DNA of 64,000 nt. Origin: Escherichia coli O157:H7. GTDB taxonomy: Bacteria > Pseudomonadota > Gammaproteobacteria > Enterobacterales > Enterobacteriaceae. This document shows, piece by piece, positions 3,064 to 48,324 of the stretch (position 1 is its first letter; each line of letters opens with the position of its first letter). The notes below the pieces were generated by a model that saw nothing but the letters and a program-made list of their open reading frames with translations, ran no database searches and was not told the DNA's origin. Location of the stretch: assembly GCF_013167455.1 (NCBI RefSeq), contig NZ_CP038328.1; one strand, written 5' to 3'. A program made the position numbers and the translations under genes.

Positions 3064-3124
3064 CCTAAAGAATCAAGACGATCCGGTACGCGTGATTTTC
3101 TTTTCACATTAATCTGGTCAATAA

Positions 3125-3155
3125 CCTTGAATAATTGAGGGATGACCTCATTTAA
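3125..3155 (+). promoter_or_regulatory. Candidate sigma32 heat-shock promoter for clpB
   Basis: ccttgaa (3125..3131), 14-nt spacer, cctcattta (3146..3154); resembles the CTTGAAA / CCCCATnT sigma32 consensus. Not validated. Confidence 0.45.
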
Positions 3156-3192
3156 TCTCCAGTAGCAACTTTGATCCGTTATGGGAGGAGTT

Positions 3193-5766
3193 ATGCGTCT
3201 GGATCGTCTTACTAATAAATTCCAGCTTGCTCTTGCCGATGCCCAATCACTTGCACTTGGGCACGACAACCAATTTATCGAACCACTTCATTTAATGAGC
3301 GCCCTGCTGAATCAGGAAGGGGGTTCGGTTAGTCCTTTATTAACATCCGCTGGCATAAATGCTGGCCAGTTGCGCACAGATATCAATCAGGCATTAAATC
3401 GTTTACCGCAGGTTGAAGGTACTGGTGGTGATGTCCAGCCATCACAGGATCTGGTGCGCGTTCTTAATCTTTGCGACAAGCTGGCGCAAAAACGTGGTGA
3501 TAACTTTATCTCGTCAGAACTGTTCGTTCTGGCGGCACTTGAGTCTCGCGGCACGCTGGCCGACATCCTGAAAGCAGCAGGGGCGACCACCGCCAACATT
3601 ACTCAAGCGATTGAACAAATGCGTGGAGGTGAAAGCGTGAACGATCAAGGTGCTGAAGACCAACGTCAGGCTTTGAAAAAATATACCATCGACCTTACCG
3701 AACGAGCCGAACAGGGCAAACTCGATCCGGTGATTGGTCGTGATGAAGAAATTCGCCGTACCATTCAGGTGCTGCAACGTCGTACTAAAAATAACCCGGT
3801 ACTGATTGGTGAACCCGGCGTCGGTAAAACTGCCATCGTTGAAGGTCTGGCGCAGCGTATTATCAACGGCGAAGTGCCGGAAGGGTTGAAAGGCCGCCGG
3901 GTACTGGCGCTGGATATGGGCGCGCTGGTGGCTGGGGCGAAATATCGCGGTGAGTTTGAAGAACGTTTAAAAGGCGTGCTTAACGATCTTGCCAAACAGG
4001 AAGGCAACGTCATCCTGTTTATCGACGAATTACATACCATGGTCGGCGCGGGTAAAGCCGATGGCGCAATGGACGCCGGAAACATGCTGAAACCGGCGCT
4101 GGCGCGTGGTGAATTGCACTGCGTAGGTGCCACGACGCTTGACGAATATCGCCAGTACATCGAAAAAGATGCTGCGCTGGAACGTCGTTTCCAGAAAGTG
4201 TTTGTTGCCGAGCCTTCTGTTGAAGATACCATTGCGATTCTGCGTGGCCTGAAAGAACGTTACGAATTGCACCACCATGTGCAAATTACTGACCCGGCAA
4301 TTGTTGCAGCGGCGACGTTGTCTCATCGCTACATTGCTGACCGTCAGCTGCCGGATAAAGCCATCGACCTGATCGATGAAGCAGCATCCAGCATTCGTAT
4401 GCAGATTGACTCAAAACCAGAAGAACTCGACCGACTCGATCGCCGTATCATCCAGCTCAAACTGGAACAACAGGCGTTAATGAAAGAGTCTGATGAAGCC
4501 AGTAAAAAACGTCTGGATATGCTCAACGAAGAACTGAGCGACAAAGAACGTCAGTACTCCGAGTTAGAAGAAGAGTGGAAAGCAGAGAAGGCATCGCTTT
4601 CTGGTACGCAGACCATTAAAGCGGAACTGGAACAGGCGAAAATCGCTATTGAACAGGCTCGCCGTGTGGGTGACTTGGCGCGGATGTCTGAACTGCAATA
4701 CGGCAAAATCCCGGAACTGGAAAAGCAACTGGAAGCCGCAACGCAGCTCGAAGGCAAAACTATGCGTCTGTTGCGTAATAAAGTGACCGACGCCGAAATT
4801 GCTGAAGTGCTGGCGCGTTGGACGGGGATTCCGGTTTCTCGCATGATGGAAAGCGAGCGCGAAAAACTGCTGCGTATGGAGCAAGAACTGCACCATCGCG
4901 TAATTGGTCAGAACGAAGCGGTTGATGCGGTATCTAACGCTATTCGTCGTAGCCGTGCGGGGCTGGCGGATCCAAATCGCCCGATTGGTTCATTCCTGTT
5001 CCTCGGCCCAACTGGTGTGGGGAAAACAGAGCTTTGTAAGGCGCTGGCGAACTTTATGTTTGATAGCGACGAGGCGATGGTCCGTATCGATATGTCCGAG
5101 TTTATGGAGAAACACTCGGTGTCTCGTCTGGTTGGTGCGCCTCCGGGATATGTCGGTTATGAAGAAGGTGGCTACCTGACCGAAGCGGTGCGTCGTCGTC
5201 CGTATTCCGTCATCCTGCTGGATGAAGTGGAAAAAGCGCATCCGGATGTCTTCAACATTCTGTTGCAGGTACTGGATGATGGGCGTCTGACTGACGGGCA
5301 AGGGAGAACGGTCGACTTCCGTAATACGGTCGTCATTATGACCTCTAACCTCGGTTCCGATCTGATTCAGGAACGCTTCGGTGAACTGGATTATGCGCAC
5401 ATGAAAGAGCTGGTGCTCGGTGTGGTAAGCCATAACTTCCGTCCGGAGTTCATTAACCGTATCGATGAAGTGGTGGTCTTCCATCCGCTGGGCGAACAGC
5501 ACATTGCCTCGATTGCGCAGATTCAGTTGAAACGTCTGTACAAACGTCTGGAAGAACGTGGTTATGAAATCCACATTTCTGACGAGGCGCTGAAACTGCT
5601 GAGCGAGAACGGTTACGATCCAGTCTATGGTGCACGTCCTTTGAAACGTGCTATCCAGCAGCAGATCGAAAACCCGTTGGCACAGCAAATACTGTCTGGT
5701 GAATTGGTTCCGGGTAAAGTTATTCGCCTGGAAGTTAATGAAGACCGGATTGTCGCCGTCCAGTAA
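3193..5766 (+). CDS. clpB: Chaperone ClpB (Hsp100 disaggregase), 857 aa
   Basis: ATG at 3193 after a ggagg RBS; N-terminus [18 protein letters not shown]; two AAA+ modules with Walker A motifs GEPGVGKT and GPTGVGKT. Confidence 0.95.
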
Positions 5767-6208: not shown

Positions 6209-7750
<1,542 letters not shown>

Positions 7751-7835
7751 CCTTAAAGAACTGTACTTTGCAGTGCTCACACAGATTGTCTGATAGAAAG
7801 TGAAAAGCAAGGCGTCTTGCGAAGCAGACTGACAC

Positions 7836-7911
7836 GTCCCCTTCGTCTAGAGGCCCAGGACACCGCCCTTTCACGGCGGTAACAGGGGTTCGAATCCCCT
7901 AGGGGACGCCA
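7836..7911 (+). tRNA. gltW: tRNA-Glu in the 16S-23S spacer
   Basis: 76-nt GTCCCCTTCGTCTAGAGGCCCAGGACACCGCCCTTTCACGGCGGTAACAGGGGTTCGAATCCCCTAGGGGACGCCA; TTCACGG anticodon loop context; encoded CCA end. Confidence 0.95.
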
Positions 7912-8104
7912 CTTGCTGGTTTGTGAGTGAAAGTCGCCGACCTTAATATCTCAAAACTCATCTTCGGGTGATGTTTGAGATATTTGCTCTTTAAAAATCT
8001 GGATCAAGCTGAAAATTGAAACACTGAACAACGAAAGTTGTTCGTGAGTCTCTCAAATTTTCGCAACATGATGATGAATCGAAAGAAACATCTTCGGGTT
8101 GTGA

Positions 8105-11007
<2,903 letters not shown>

Positions 11008-11099
11008 ACAACGCCGAAGGTGTTTTGGCGGATGAGAGAAGATTTTCGGCCTGATACAGATTAAATCAGAACGCAGAAGCGGTCTGATAAAACAGAATT

Positions 11100-11219
11100 T
11101 GCCTGGCGGCCTTAGCGCGGTGGTCCCACCTGACCCCATGCCGAACTCAGAAGTGAAACGCCGTAGCGCCGATGGTAGTGTGGGGTCTCCCCATGCGAGA
11201 GTAGGGAACTGCCAGGCAT
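11100..11219 (+). rRNA. rrfG: 5S ribosomal RNA
   Basis: TGCCTGGCGGCC...GAACTGCCAGGCAT, 120 nt. Confidence 0.95.
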
Positions 11220-45776: not shown

Positions 45777-45960
45777 AGTGGCTCATTCACCGACTTATGT
45801 CAGCCCCTTCGGGACGTGCTACATAAAATTCGAATGACGCACAACAAGGTGCCTGCCGTCCAACTTCTGATATCAGCGTAGCTATATCAACCATCGGGCG
45901 AAACGTCGAGTTAGGCACCGCCTTATTCCATAACAAAGCCGGGTAATTCCCGGCTTTGTT
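45777..45960 (+). ncRNA. glmY: GlmY small regulatory RNA (184 nt)
   Basis: From AGTGGCTCATTCACCGACTTATGTCAGCCCCTTCGGGACG... to the terminator hairpin aaagccgggtaattcccggctttgtt; sits between purL and glrK. Confidence 0.8.
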
Positions 45961-46018: not shown

Positions 46019-47446
46019 TTGAAACGCTGGCCCGTTTTTCCCCGCTCATTACGACAACTGGTAATGCTGGCATTTTTGCTGATTCTGCTGCCCCTGTTGG
46101 TGCTGGCATGGCAAGCCTGGCAAAGCCTGAATGCGCTTAGCGACCAGGCGGCGCTGGTCAACCGCACCACGCTTATCGATGCCCGGCGCAGCGAAGCAAT
46201 GACCAACGCGGCGCTGGAGATGGAGCGTAGCTACCGTCAGTATTGCGTGCTGGATGACCCTACGCTTGCGAAGGTTTATCAAAGCCAGCGCAAGCGTTAC
46301 AGCGAAATGCTCGATGCCCACGCAGGCGTACTGCCAGACGATAAACTTTACCAGGCATTGCGTCAGGACTTGAACAATCTGGCCCAACTTCAGTGCAACA
46401 ACAGTGGTCCCGATGCTGCTGCTGCCGCGCGTCTGGAAGCCTTTGCCAGTGCCAATACCGAAATGGTACAGGCCACGCGCACAGTAGTGTTCTCTCGTGG
46501 GCAGCAACTTCAGCGTGAAATCGCCGAACGTGGGCAATATTTTGGTTGGCAATCGCTGGTGCTATTTCTGGTGAGTCTGGTAATGGTACTGCTTTTCACG
46601 CGGATGATTATCGGGCCGGTGAAAAATATTGAACGGATGATCAATCGGTTGGGGGAAGGGCGTTCTCTGGGCAATAGCGTTTCGTTCAGTGGACCGAGCG
46701 AGTTACGCTCGGTTGGGCAACGTATTCTTTGGTTAAGTGAGCGCCTGTCATGGCTGGAATCCCAACGCCATCAATTTTTAAGACATTTATCTCATGAATT
46801 AAAAACGCCACTGGCGAGTATGCGCGAGGGCACTGAATTACTGGCTGATCAGGTTGTCGGGCCGCTTACGCCAGAGCAAAAAGAGGTGGTGAGCATTCTT
46901 GATAGCAGCAGCCGCAATTTGCAAAAACTGATCGAACAACTGCTTGATTACAACCGTAAACAGGCGGACAGTGCGGTGGAACTAGATAATGTTGAGTTAG
47001 CACCGCTGGTGGAGACAGTAGTTTCTGCTCATAGCCTGCCCGCACGGGCTAAAATGATGCATACCGACGTCGATCTCAAAGCAACAGCTTGCCTGGCGGA
47101 GCCAATGCTGCTGATGAGCGTACTGGATAATCTTTACTCCAATGCGGTGCACTACGGGGCTGAATCCGGTAACATTTGCCTTCGCAGCAGTTTACATGGT
47201 GCGCGGGTTTATATTGATGTCATCAATACAGGCACGCCCATTCCGCAAGAGGAACGCGCCATGATCTTCGAACCCTTTTTTCAGGGAAGCCACCAGCGAA
47301 AAGGGGCGGTGAAGGGCAGCGGTCTGGGATTAAGCATTGCCAGGGATTGTATTCGCCGTATGCAAGGGGAACTGTATCTGGTCGACGAGAGCGGGCAAGA
47401 CGTTTGTTTCCGCATTGAATTACCGTCGTCGAAAAACACGAAATAA
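46019..47446 (+). CDS. glrK: Two-component sensor histidine kinase GlrK (QseE)
   Basis: 475 aa if started at TTG 46019 (MKRWPVFPRSLRQLVMLAFLLILL...); HAMP, HisKA H-box (LSHELKTPLAS) and HATPase domains. Start inferred. Confidence 0.85.
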   Translation: MKRWPVFPRSLRQLVMLAFLLILLPLLVLAWQAWQSLNALSDQAALVNRTTLIDARRSEAMTNAALEMERSYRQYCVLDDPTLAKVYQSQRKRYSEMLDAHAGVLPDDKLYQALRQDLNNLAQLQCNNSGPDAAAAARLEAFASANTEMVQATRTVVFSRGQQLQREIAERGQYFGWQSLVLFLVSLVMVLLFTRMIIGPVKNIERMINRLGEGRSLGNSVSFSGPSELRSVGQRILWLSERLSWLESQRHQFLRHLSHELKTPLASMREGTELLADQVVGPLTPEQKEVVSILDSSSRNLQKLIEQLLDYNRKQADSAVELDNVELAPLVETVVSAHSLPARAKMMHTDVDLKATACLAEPMLLMSVLDNLYSNAVHYGAESGNICLRSSLHGARVYIDVINTGTPIPQEERAMIFEPFFQGSHQRKGAVKGSGLGLSIARDCIRRMQGELYLVDESGQDVCFRIELPSSKNTK

Positions 47447-47610
47447 TGCTAACAGCCTATCCCATCAGGCTATTTTATTTGTCAGTTCGGCCCCGGGCAG
47501 TGCTCGAAATCCTCACGTACGACATGTACGCTCCGGTTTCTCCGCGCTGTCCATGTCCAAACTGTCTGCAACAATTACGCCCACTGGGATAGGCTTTAAG
47601 TCTGGTGAAT

Positions 47611-48324
47611 ATGCGACACATTTTTCAACGATTATTGCCCCGACGGCTGTGGCTGGCAGGGCTGCCATGTCTGGCATTGCTAGGTTGCGTGCAGAATCAC
47701 AATAAGCCAGCCATTGATACGCCAGCAGAAGAAAAAATTCCGGTTTATCAACTGGCTGACTATCTTTCTACTGAATGTAGCGACATCTGGGCGCTGCAAG
47801 GTAAATCAACCGAAACCAATCCGCTTTACTGGCTGCGGGCGATGGATTGTGCTGATCGTTTAATGCCTGCGCAGTCGCGTCAGCAAGCTCGCCAATATGA
47901 CGACGGCAGCTGGCAAAATACCTTTAAACAAGGGATTTTGCTCGCCGACGCCAAAATTACGCCATATGAGCGCCGCCAGCTGGTCGCGCGTATTGAAGCG
48001 TTAAGTACCGAGATCCCGGCACAGGTTCGCCCACTGTATCAACTCTGGCGCGACGGTCAGGCGCTGCAACTGCAACTGGCGGAAGAGCGCCAACGCTACA
48101 GTAAACTCCAGCAGTCCAGCGACAGCGAGCTGGATACATTGCGCCAGCAACATCACGTTCTACAGCAGCAACTGGAACTCACCACCCGCAAGCTGGAAAA
48201 CCTGACTGATATTGAACGCCAGCTCTCGACCCGCAAACCGGCTGGAAATTTCTCGCCGGATACGCCACACGAGAGTGAAAAGCCCGCGCCATCCACCCAT
48301 GAGGTCACTCCTGATGAGCCATAA
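47611..48324 (+). CDS. qseG: Lipoprotein QseG/YfhG, accessory to the GlrK-GlrR system
   Basis: 237 aa from ATG 47611 (MRHIFQRLLPRRLWLAGLPCLALLGCVQ...); lipobox; Gln-rich coiled-coil-like C-terminus. Confidence 0.8.
   Translation: MRHIFQRLLPRRLWLAGLPCLALLGCVQNHNKPAIDTPAEEKIPVYQLADYLSTECSDIWALQGKSTETNPLYWLRAMDCADRLMPAQSRQQARQYDDGSWQNTFKQGILLADAKITPYERRQLVARIEALSTEIPAQVRPLYQLWRDGQALQLQLAEERQRYSKLQQSSDSELDTLRQQHHVLQQQLELTTRKLENLTDIERQLSTRKPAGNFSPDTPHESEKPAPSTHEVTPDEP

What the first reader, a model, noticed from the sequence alone, without database searches (positions are those of the whole stretch)
47447..47610. 11-nt perfect inverted repeat flanking the glrK-qseG spacer
agcctatccca (47454..47464) and its exact reverse complement tgggataggct (47585..47595) bracket about 120 nt between the glrK stop and the qseG start. 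This could form a long-range stem in the polycistronic mRNA affecting qseG translation, or be a remnant of a small palindromic element.
Basis: seen in the sequence. Interest (0 to 1): 0.25.

Follow-up and report, generated by a model that had tools for sequence, protein, structure and literature searches.

The report
Ends of a small mobile repeat
The 11-base inverted repeat is the two ends of a 144-bp non-coding mobile repeat that jumped in between glrK and qseG in the ancestor of E. coli; this is ordinary, but the hairpin tip of this repeat family turns out to be conserved in very distant bacteria.

Summary
It is not a locus-specific regulatory stem. The arms are the terminal inverted repeats of a 144-bp palindromic, non-coding mobile element (47453-47596). 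The element is flanked by a TAA target duplication. Salmonella, Citrobacter, Klebsiella and two Escherichia-like relatives have only about 17-25 nt at this position, and one reads ...AATGCTAAGTCTGG..., the exact empty site. The element is present in 5425 of 5426 complete E. coli genomes. Paralogues lie at pheM-pheS, pyrH-frr, ycbX-rlmL and ffh-rpsP, and on plasmids and prophages. Size and copy number fit the old "RSA/BEE95" enterobacterial repeat. Within E. coli the arms mutate without compensation, so the perfect 11-mer is a feature of only some lineages, O157 among them. The operon mRNA can still fold the element into a hairpin of about -60 kcal/mol, but a role in qseG control is unproven. 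One result was unexpected: the roughly 58-nt tip of the hairpin, with covarying stems, recurs in Bacillus rRNA spacers, Rickettsia, Chlorobi, Planctomycetes, CPR bacteria and Xanthomonas (sRNA sX9). Its function is unknown.

The parts
47444..47446 (+). glrK (qseE) stop codon TAA. The A of this stop overlaps an ATG (47446-47448).
47450..47452 (.). Left copy of the target-site duplication (TAA; TA is equally possible).
   Evidence: The empty site in L139 reads GCTAAGTC. The filled site reads GC-TAA-[element]-TAA-GTC.
47453..47596 (.). 144-bp palindromic non-autonomous mobile element (MITE; probable RSA/BEE95 repeat).
   Evidence: It is absent from Salmonella, C. koseri, K. oxytoca and two Escherichia-like relatives. 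Paralogues exist elsewhere. It is present in 5425 of 5426 E. coli genomes.
47454..47464 (+).
   Evidence: family consensus (T)TAGAGCCTATCCCA
47585..47595 (+).
47597..47599 (.). Right copy of the target-site duplication (TAA).
47467..47582 (.). Inner long hairpin (AGGCTATTTTA...TTACGCC). This is the part shared with copies that lack the outer terminal repeats (prophage copies; Yersinia and beta-proteobacterial copies).
47495..47552 (-). Widely conserved tip module. On the minus strand it reads 5'-..AACC-GGA-GCGUAC-loop-GUACGU-GA-GG-A-UU..-3'. The covariance model R1 matches at 79.6 bits, E = 3.7e-20, and this is the only copy in the window.
47511..47536 (+). 26-nt core CCTCACGTAC-GACAT-GTACGCTCCGG, used as the search pattern.
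47515..47581 (+). Sub-threshold match to Rfam sX9 (Xanthomonas sRNA), covering the tip and the right arm.
   Evidence: 31.4 bits against a gathering score of 44, E = 2.4e-4
47454..47481 (+). Local end hairpin AGCCU/AGGCU followed by AUUUUAUUUG. A consensus scan flags it as terminator-like, but it is weak (5 base pairs, 8-nt loop).
47446..47592 (+). 48-codon ORF that starts at the ATG overlapping the glrK stop and ends inside the right terminal repeat. It is probably not a gene.
   Evidence: In Escherichia sp. E4930 a 1-nt deletion puts the corresponding start in a different frame (my reading of the sequences aligned).
47611..48324 (+). qseG coding sequence. Its ATG and the preceding CTGGTGAAT are the same as in relatives that lack the element.

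Best explanation
The two 11-nt arms are the terminal inverted repeats of a 144-bp non-autonomous palindromic mobile element (a MITE). It is most probably a member of the enterobacterial RSA/BEE95 repeat family.

Shown: the element inserted at a TAA in the ancestral 17-nt glrK-qseG spacer and duplicated that TAA. This happened in the lineage leading to E. coli and at least one cryptic Escherichia clade. The element is now fixed in E. coli.

Inferred: it was mobilised in trans by a transposase that makes 3-bp T-A/T-A duplications, which is the behaviour of IS5-type transposases. It now drifts roughly like silent sites.

Inferred: because it sits inside the glrK-qseG-glrR transcription unit, the mRNA carries a long imperfect hairpin of about -60 kcal/mol whose 3' foot ends 15 nt before the qseG ATG. 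The insertion also pushed apart two cistrons that were almost touching. Any change in the relative expression of glrK and qseG-glrR is therefore a by-product of the insertion, not a purpose-built switch.
For: Repeat family. The spacer matches a median of 2 (megablast) or 5 (blastn) places per E. coli genome, with a maximum of 8. Identified paralogues lie at pheM-pheS, ycbX-rlmL, pyrH-frr and ffh-rpsP. Other copies occur in Klebsiella, Citrobacter, Salmonella, Pantoea, Yersinia and Serratia, and on conjugative plasmids.

Insertion. Salmonella, C. koseri and K. oxytoca have 17-25 nt here, and the covariance model finds nothing in those loci. The Escherichia-like locus L139 reads GAAATAATGCTAAGTCTGGTGAATATG, and E. 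coli reads the same with [CAGCC...GGCTT]TAA added after the TAA.

Target duplication. I read the same 3-bp TAA or TTA direct repeat at the ends of most enterobacterial copies and of the Syntrophus copies I inspected in the listings. I did not tabulate this.

No transposase. No protein family recurs beside the copies.

Fixation. The element is in 5425 of 5426 genomes.

Drift. The arms and even the core (CCTCAC to CTTCAC in K-12 and EC958) change without compensation, while the flanks shown are invariant. Between K-12 and O157 the element differs at 2.67%, against 7.35% and 2.52% at third codon positions of glrK and qseG.

Hairpin. The fold is -59.7 kcal/mol, z = -4.4.

Family name. RSA is listed as 150/151 bp with 6 copies in K-12 (PMC5172473). 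[quoted passage not shown]
Against: No RSA consensus sequence or coordinates were available, so the name rests only on size, copy number and description. The current K-12 record has no repeat feature here.

No autonomous element with the same ends was found, and the search for one covered only the fetched loci.

Complete fixation in the species, and the retention of other copies at the same locus across genera with compensatory changes (ffh-rpsP), leave room for some copies being useful.

The element diverges no faster than silent sites, so weak constraint cannot be excluded.

No expression data for this spacer were examined.
Confidence: 0.8

Rival explanations
1. Domesticated RNA element. The inserted hairpin now acts in the operon mRNA as a processing or stability determinant, as shown for ERIC repeats in Yersinia. 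It would set the ratio of GlrK to QseG and GlrR, or replace the ancestral close coupling of the two cistrons.
For: The hairpin is stable and ends 15 nt before the qseG ATG. The element is fixed in 5425 of 5426 genomes. Members of the family sit inside many operons without splitting them: pyrH-frr, pheM-pheS, malG-malF, xylA-xylB and dnaN-recF. A homologous Xanthomonas element yields a 75-nt RNA seen on Northern blots, with more reads in the untreated library (17) than in the library enriched for primary transcripts (2), which fits a processing product (PMC3300014). Proteomics cited in PMC6075780 found 11 QseG and 36 QseF molecules per cell while QseE was not detected. In relatives without the element, an ATG overlapping the glrK stop is in frame with qseG, so the insertion changed the coupling geometry.
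Against: Arm and core positions mutate without compensation among E. coli strains. Divergence is in the range of silent sites. Orientation relative to flanking genes shows no strong bias in the family: 24 to 17 in enterobacteria. There is no direct expression evidence for this locus.
Confidence: 0.2
2. Locus-specific regulatory stem. The two 11-mers evolved in place to pair across the spacer and control qseG translation.
For: The complementarity is perfect and the predicted fold is stable.
Against: Both arms arrived together as the ends of an insertion. The same arms occur at unrelated loci. They are not conserved as a pair within E. coli. The stem does not cover the qseG ATG or the GGTG just before it.
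Confidence: 0.04
3. An independent gene inside the spacer: either a small RNA like sX9, or the 48-codon ORF that starts at the ATG overlapping the glrK stop.
For: There is a sub-threshold sX9 match. The ORF 47446-47592 has a TAATG overlap with glrK.
Against: No promoter-like site lies on the plus strand of the element. The sX9 score of 31.4 is below the gathering score of 44. In Escherichia sp. E4930 a 1-nt deletion changes the reading frame, so the peptide is not conserved (my reading). A second plus-strand frame also runs open across the whole element (ORF 47337-47705), and the plus strand is 59% C+T, so long ORFs are expected by chance.
Confidence: 0.04
4. Internal terminator or attenuator. 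The left-end hairpin plus U-run (47454-47481), or the whole hairpin, stops part of the transcription after glrK.
For: The consensus scan flags AGCCUAUCCCAUCAGGCU + AUUUUAUUUG, and a similar site on the other strand. The GGCTATTTTA stretch is invariant in the five copies aligned.
Against: The stem has only 5 pairs and an 8-nt loop, and the large hairpin has no U-tail. qseEGF is treated as one operon, and QseG and QseF are detected at higher levels than QseE (PMC6075780). Family members lie inside essential operons, upstream of frr, pheS and recF.
Confidence: 0.05

Closest known systems
RSA (also called BEE95) enterobacterial intergenic repeats
   Same: Both are dispersed intergenic elements of enterobacteria. 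RSA is listed as 150/151 bp with 6 copies in K-12 (PMC5172473). Here the element is 144 bp, or 150 bp with both target duplications, and occurs at a median of 5 and up to 8 places per E. coli genome.
   Different: No RSA consensus or coordinates could be obtained, so identity is inferred and not shown. The literature I could read describes nothing about target duplication, structure or distribution outside enterobacteria.
ERIC/IRU repeats
   Same: Both are imperfect palindromes of about 127-150 bp found in enterobacterial intergenic regions, often inside operons, in either orientation, and transcribed as long RNA hairpins. ERIC copies in Yersinia change mRNA stability (as summarised in PMC2267715).
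   Different: From my own recollection of the ERIC consensus, which was not tested here, the sequences are unrelated. ERIC has more copies in E. coli (19-21) than this family.
IS5-type / 'Tourist-like' MITEs (3-bp T-A/T-A target duplication)
   Same: Both are short, have terminal inverted repeats, lack a transposase, have several copies, and carry a 3-bp TAA/TTA direct duplication at the ends. Nested insertions occur (L036).
   Different: No parent insertion sequence with matching ends was found. In this family the most conserved part is the middle of the element, not the ends, which is the opposite of what is expected for a deletion derivative of an insertion sequence.
Xanthomonas sRNA sX9 (Rfam RF02228)
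   Same: The sX9 consensus AUGUACCACUCGUACACUCCGGUUCCUCCGCGCCGUCC aligns with the tip and right arm of the E. coli element. sX9 is a 75-nt RNA detected by Northern blot (PMC3300014).
   Different: The score is below the family threshold. The Rfam model covers only half of the hairpin and treats it as a Xanthomonas gene, not as part of a repeat family.
Rickettsia palindromic elements (RPE) and other hairpin repeats (REP/BIME, Correia, YPAL)
   Same: All are small palindromic repeats scattered in bacterial genomes. Copies of the present tip module do occur in Rickettsia and Rickettsiaceae genomes (L029, L046, L047, L091).
   Different: I did not test whether the Rickettsia copies belong to a named RPE family. 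The published YPAL/RU-2 and RU-3 sequences (PMC2759123) are unrelated.

Membership tests
MITE (miniature inverted-repeat transposable element) | Short (under about 300 bp), with terminal inverted repeats | tested here: met
   144 bp. The ends are perfect over 11/11 nt and 88% complementary over 16 nt. The same ends occur in paralogues.
MITE (miniature inverted-repeat transposable element) | Target-site duplication, shown by comparison with an empty site | tested here: met
   GCTAAGTC in L139 against GC-TAA-[144 bp]-TAA-GTC in E. coli. I read TAA/TTA duplications at most other copies in the listings.
MITE (miniature inverted-repeat transposable element) | Several dispersed copies and no transposase gene | tested here: met
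   Median 5 places per genome. No protein family recurs next to the copies.
MITE (miniature inverted-repeat transposable element) | A related autonomous element with the same ends | tested here: inconclusive
   No isolated ends that flank a transposase were seen, but only the fetched loci were examined. No whole-collection search was possible.
RSA / BEE95 repeat | About 150 bp, about 6 copies in E. coli K-12, dispersed in enterobacterial intergenic regions | tested here: met
   144-150 bp. Between 3 and 8 places per genome. K-12 carries the copy. Reference values come from PMC5172473 and from the title cited in PMC3751351.
RSA / BEE95 repeat | Sequence identity to the published RSA consensus or coordinates | not testable with these tools
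   The original descriptions are not in the library, and the current K-12 record lists no repeat feature here.
Rfam sX9 (RF02228) | Score at or above the gathering threshold of 44 bits | tested here: not met
   31.4 bits in the window and 26 bits in two other loci.
Intrinsic (rho-independent) terminator | GC-rich stem-loop followed directly by a U-run | tested here: inconclusive
   Only a weak 5-bp end hairpin with AUUUUAUUUG is flagged. The main hairpin has no U-tail.
Structured RNA or single-strand module (the conserved tip) | Base pairs kept through compensatory changes | tested here: met
   In helix P2, 124 cells have changes on both sides, against 47 +/- 5 in shuffles (0 of 500) and at most 38 in slid controls. 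In helix P1, C-G changes to U-A in two Chlorobiales copies. This is also expected for any DNA palindrome, so it does not prove an RNA function.

The most novel reading that the evidence does not exclude
The middle of this element is not filler. It may be a deeply conserved, structured single-strand module, most likely RNA.

The module is a hairpin tip that reads 5'-AACC-GGA-GCGUAC-loop-GUACGU-GA-GG-A-UU-3', with a covarying lower stem and purine-rich internal loops. Further from the tip there is a conserved hairpin base, GCGUAGCGAGCG...CGCGCAGUAGCC. Different lineages have wrapped this module in their own terminal repeats and mobilised it.

It occurs from E. coli to Bacillus (where it abuts the 5' end of 23S rRNA in the spacer), Rickettsia, Syntrophus, Chlorobi, Planctomycetes, Cyanobacteria, Coriobacteriia and CPR bacteria. 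If this reading is right, it would be a widespread, unrecognised class of mobile structured RNA whose tip binds a universal cellular partner, for example an RNase or a ribosome-related factor. Rfam holds only a fragment of it, as the Xanthomonas sRNA sX9.
Probability: 0.3. Interest if true: 0.7.

Novelty: already known. Interest (0 to 1): 0.4.

Why it matters
For the glrK-qseG-glrR (qseEGF) system, the point is practical. E. coli differs from Salmonella, Citrobacter and Klebsiella by a 147-bp insertion that carries a strong hairpin between the kinase gene and the gene for its essential lipoprotein partner. Deletion constructs, operon fusions and cross-species comparisons of qseG expression should take this into account.

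For genome biology, the family is a neglected enterobacterial repeat, and it has a feature that ordinary MITEs lack. Its centre, not its ends, is conserved, and this conservation holds across bacterial phyla with compensatory base changes. If that centre is a functional RNA module, the family offers an easily testable case of a structured RNA that spreads as a transposable element.

Tried and rejected
1. Known RNA families. Rfam searches of the window and of 24 related loci found only sub-threshold sX9 matches at the element.

2. A transposase or other protein associated with the element. All-against-all comparison of ORFs within 2.5 kb of 120 copies gave only clusters of orthologous neighbours.

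3. An internal promoter. No plus-strand sigma-70-like site lies in the element.

4. A small protein. I rejected the 48-codon ORF because the frame is not conserved and another plus-strand frame is also open.

5. Orientation bias relative to genes. The bias is weak: 24 to 17 in enterobacteria and 11 to 4 elsewhere. A rough check of the five E. coli copies against replication direction, made by hand from remembered K-12 map positions, gave 3 to 2.

6. Strand asymmetry of folding. It is clear outside enterobacteria, where the strand reading CCGGAGCGUAC folds better in 42 of 46 copies. It is absent in enterobacteria, at 40 of 81. It therefore says nothing about this copy.

7. Ribozyme, K-turn, CsrA-site, boxA and sarcin-ricin-loop resemblances. 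I considered these by eye. None fitted in register, and none was tested further.

8. Literature searches for the core sequence, for RSA and for BEE95. These returned only a table entry and a cited title. Systematic surveys of stem-loop repeats did not report this family in E. coli (PMC2267715).

9. A search for isolated element ends that might flank an autonomous element. It found only a nested insertion.

Full report
**Observation**

The window comes from an E. coli O157:H7-like chromosome, since the spacer is 100% identical to O157:H7 records. The local gene order is purL, glmY sRNA (45777-45924, Rfam 147 bits), glrK/qseE (stop at 47444-47446), a 164-nt spacer, qseG (ATG at 47611), glrR/qseF, glnB and hmp.

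AGCCTATCCCA at 47454-47464 and TGGGATAGGCT at 47585-47595 are exact reverse complements 120 nt apart. The complementarity extends to 16 nt at 88%.

An 11-mer inverted repeat alone is weak evidence. Dinucleotide shuffles of the window give 4.0 +/- 2.5 such pairs within 200 nt, and the window holds 27, most of them terminators or known RNAs. However, the whole stretch 47440-47620 folds at -59.7 kcal/mol with z = -4.4.

**What it is**

The spacer is not unique sequence. Megablast finds it at a median of 2 places per complete E. coli genome, and blastn at a median of 5 and a maximum of 8.

Copies that I fetched lie at these positions:
- between the pheM attenuator and pheS;
- between ycbX and rlmL;
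- between pyrH and frr;
- directly after the ffh stop, upstream of rpsP;
- in other genera, between malG and malF (Pantoea), xylA and xylB (Yersinia), galS and mglB (Salmonella), and dnaN and recF (Pluralibacter, Serratia, Erwinia);
- on many conjugative plasmids, at the 3' end of an RND pump gene;
- in enterobacterial prophage contigs.

Alignments give the consensus ends (T)TAGAGCCTATCCCATTAGGCTATTTTA ... ACGCCTACTGGGATAGGCTCTA(A).

**Insertion and target duplication**

I retrieved the qseG locus of relatives through QseG homologues. Salmonella enterica, Citrobacter koseri and Klebsiella oxytoca have about 17-25 nt between the glrK stop and the qseG ATG. Two Escherichia-like contigs, with QseG 89% and 78% identical, are the same. 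Escherichia sp. E4930 has the element.

Locus L139 reads GAAATAATGCTAAGTCTGGTGAATATG. E. coli reads GAAATAATGC-TAA-[CAGCC...GGCTT]-TAA-GTCTGGTGAATATG. This gives a 144-bp element (47453-47596) flanked by a duplicated TAA (47450-47452 and 47597-47599). A TA duplication with a 145-bp element is an equally valid parse.

A covariance model of the element's centre finds one copy in the window (79.6 bits, with the next best at 9.9 bits) and nothing in the empty-site loci.

I read the same 3-bp TAA or TTA direct repeat at the ends of most enterobacterial copies, for example L021, L094, L095, L112, L118, L119 and L156, and of the Syntrophus copies, in the listings. I did not tabulate these. From general knowledge, a 3-bp T-A/T-A duplication is what IS5-type (Harbinger/Tourist-like) transposases produce.

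No protein family recurs next to the copies. A search for isolated ends in the fetched loci showed only a nested insertion. The element is therefore non-autonomous and its mobiliser is unknown.

**Name**

A table of E. coli K-12 repeats lists RSA at 150/151 bp with 6 copies (PMC5172473). [quoted passage not shown]

Size, copy number and description fit, but I could not obtain an RSA sequence or coordinates. The current K-12 record shows no repeat feature in this spacer. I therefore treat RSA as the probable name, not a proven one.

Systematic surveys of stem-loop repeats did not report this family in E. coli (PMC2267715). The published YPAL/RU-2 and RU-3 sequences are unrelated (PMC2759123).

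**Is this copy functional?**

The element is in 5425 of 5426 complete E. coli genomes. Among six alleles, about 18 positions inside the element vary while the roughly 45 flanking bases shown are invariant. The changes include:
- the left arm in K-12 (C to T, which gives a G.U pair in RNA);
- the left arm in EC958 (a C.A mismatch);
- the right arm in KK19-02 and in W;
- the otherwise universal core in K-12 and EC958 (CCTCAC to CTTCAC).

None of these changes is compensated, so the perfect 11/11 pairing is a property of only some lineages (O157 and Escherichia sp. E4930 among the six compared), not of the species.

Between K-12 and O157 the element differs at 2.67%. Third codon positions differ at 7.35% in glrK and 2.52% in qseG. 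This is compatible with neutrality or weak constraint.

No plus-strand promoter-like site is present. A weak terminator-like end hairpin (AGCCU/AGGCU followed by AUUUUAUUUG) is flagged.

The 48-codon ORF that starts at the ATG overlapping the glrK stop is unlikely to be a gene. In E4930 a 1-nt deletion shifts its frame, and a second plus-strand frame also runs open across the element (ORF 47337-47705), so long ORFs are expected by chance.

In relatives without the element, that same ATG is in frame with the qseG ATG six codons downstream, and a gene caller used it as the start. The insertion thus separated two cistrons that were almost or actually overlapping.

The published work I read treats qseEGF as one operon. 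It mentions only a hypothetical internal promoter in the qseE-qseG spacer, and cites 11 QseG and 36 QseF molecules per cell with QseE undetected (PMC6075780).

My best reading is a fixed passenger whose hairpin in the mRNA may incidentally affect the operon. A domesticated role in mRNA processing or stability remains possible, and I give it about 0.2.

**The unexpected part**

I scanned one genome per species for the 26-nt centre, CCTCACGTAC-N3-5-GTACGC-NN-CGG. By my own estimate, about 6 chance hits are expected in 298 Gb.

About 40% of the copies are outside Enterobacterales. They include a Syntrophus genome (at least 12 copies), Chlorobiales (at least 5), Candidatus Scalindua (3), Bacillus and Cytobacillus, Rickettsia and Rickettsiaceae, Patescibacteria, Coriobacteriia, Cyanobacteria, Eubacteriales, Puniceicoccaceae, Bdellovibrionales, Rhizobiales, Devosia, Burkholderiales, Rhodoferax and Microbulbifer.

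These copies are not contamination. Each lineage has its own arms and base composition, with GC ranging from 0.31 to 0.69.

Positions that the pattern did not force are still conserved outside enterobacteria:
- AAT before the core, at 60-82%;
- TT after the core, at 60-76%;
- NN = TC in 31 of 46 copies.

Every copy sits at the tip of a long hairpin, with typical energies of -45 to -85 kcal/mol against -20 to -50 for shuffles.

On an alignment of 123 distinct copies the consensus on the strand reading CCGGAG... has, from base to tip:
- a lower stem P2;
- an internal loop GGA/GA with a bulged A;
- a stem P1 (GCGUAC/GUACGU);
- a 3-5-nt loop.

P2 covaries. There are 124 double-change cells, against 47 +/- 5 in shuffles (0 of 500) and at most 38 in slid controls. 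At one pair the counts are AU 39, CG 29, UA 15 and GC 10.

Copies found only by the covariance model show a compensatory C-G to U-A change in P1.

Further from the tip, other motifs recur across phyla: CAAGG opposite AACGAAG, and a hairpin base GCGUAGCGAGCG...CGCGCAGUAGCC.

Outside enterobacteria the CCGGAG strand folds better in 42 of 46 copies. In enterobacteria there is no asymmetry, at 40 of 81.

In Bacilli all five copies lie in rRNA operons with the CCGGAG strand in the rRNA transcript. In two species the hairpin directly abuts the mature 5' end of 23S rRNA.

Rfam holds only a fragment of this. The Xanthomonas sRNA sX9 model aligns to the tip and the right arm at 31.4 bits, below its threshold of 44. 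sX9 is a 75-nt RNA seen on Northern blots, with more reads in the untreated library than in the library enriched for primary transcripts, which fits a processing product (PMC3300014). It is among the most frequently annotated sRNAs in bacterial genomes (PMC9029176).

I could not identify what the conserved tip does. The resemblances I considered by eye (K-turn, CsrA sites, Shine-Dalgarno-like GGAG/GAGG, boxA, ribozyme cores) did not fit.

Covariation is also expected for any DNA palindrome, so it does not prove an RNA function. The strand asymmetry outside enterobacteria, the sense orientation in Bacillus rRNA precursors and the sX9 transcript are what point to RNA.

**Verdict**

The finding is real and is explained. 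It is the pair of terminal repeats of a known kind of small mobile repeat, inserted in the E. coli lineage. As a claim about qseG regulation it is unsupported, and on that basis it is of low interest.

The overall score is raised because following the element outward showed that its centre is a structured module shared across bacterial phyla. To my knowledge, and in the literature available here, this has not been described. That part needs a full-collection search and experiments before it can be called new.

Noticed in passing
window 47495-47552 (minus strand); loci L015-L130: The roughly 58-nt tip of the element is conserved, with covarying stems, in many bacterial phyla: Syntrophus, Chlorobi, Planctomycetes, Bacilli, Rickettsia, CPR bacteria, Cyanobacteria and Coriobacteriia. 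Each lineage has its own outer arms.
   Followed up: partly
L108 about 985-1104; L109 about 5358-5479; L130 452-509; L042/L043 about 384-503 and 1180-1235: In Bacilli every copy found lies in an rRNA operon with the CCGGAGCGUAC strand in the rRNA transcript. In L108 and L109 the hairpin directly abuts the mature 5' end of 23S rRNA. In B. fonticola it follows 5S rRNA and a Bacillaceae-1 RNA.
   Followed up: partly
L011, L051, L052, L081-L083, L087, L089; Salmonella L132 2001-2213 and L133 2001-2209: A longer variant of about 210 bp carries an insert of about 57 nt (..GCTGGCATTTTGAACGC..TTAGAGCGGCCC..GAGCGAAGCGAGTAAAAT) next to the core. The short motif AAAAT occurs on both sides of the insert, which suggests a nested insertion or a partial duplication.
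   Followed up: no
window 47446-47448 and 47611; L139 about 300-340: In relatives without the element, an ATG that overlaps the glrK stop (TAATG) is in frame with the qseG ATG six codons downstream. glrK and qseG may therefore have been translationally coupled before the insertion.
   Followed up: partly
L174 about 460-700; L024, L027, L059, L063: The copy directly after the ffh stop, upstream of rpsP, is kept at the same locus in E. coli (5301 of 5426 genomes), E. albertii, Enterobacter and Citrobacter. It shows compensatory changes in its stems, which suggests constraint at that locus.
   Followed up: partly
L004 2501-2643; L010 1501-1639, and about 60 similar plasmids: An identical copy sits at the 3' end of an RND efflux permease gene, next to an acyltransferase gene and pagP, on conjugative plasmids of Klebsiella, Citrobacter and Enterobacter. 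These plasmids are a likely vehicle for spread.
   Followed up: no
L143-L173 (viral contigs): 31 prophage or viral contigs carry the core. Most are enterobacterial and hold only the inner hairpin (ATTAGGCTATTTTA...ACGCCTAAT), without the outer terminal repeats, just after a GC-rich terminator-like hairpin.
   Followed up: no
L036 6443-6770: In the Syntrophus genome, one subfamily copy (TACCAATTCTAATTC ends) is nested inside a copy of the other subfamily (TTCCATTTCTCAATC ends).
   Followed up: no
window 20635/20777, 23191/23281, 37332/37423: Three other perfect 11-nt inverted-repeat pairs with 80-130 nt between the arms. No Rfam family at gathering score covers them. The pairs at 32909/32992 and at 36474-36543 fall in rncO and ohsC respectively.
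   Followed up: no
window 3074-3212, 6209-11217, 29261-30092, 32876-33090, 36503-36579: Context from Rfam: RyfD, a complete rRNA operon (16S, tRNA, StyR-44 just upstream of 23S, 23S, 5S), AsrC antisense to rseC, the rncO RNase III autoregulatory site, and OhsC.
   Followed up: no
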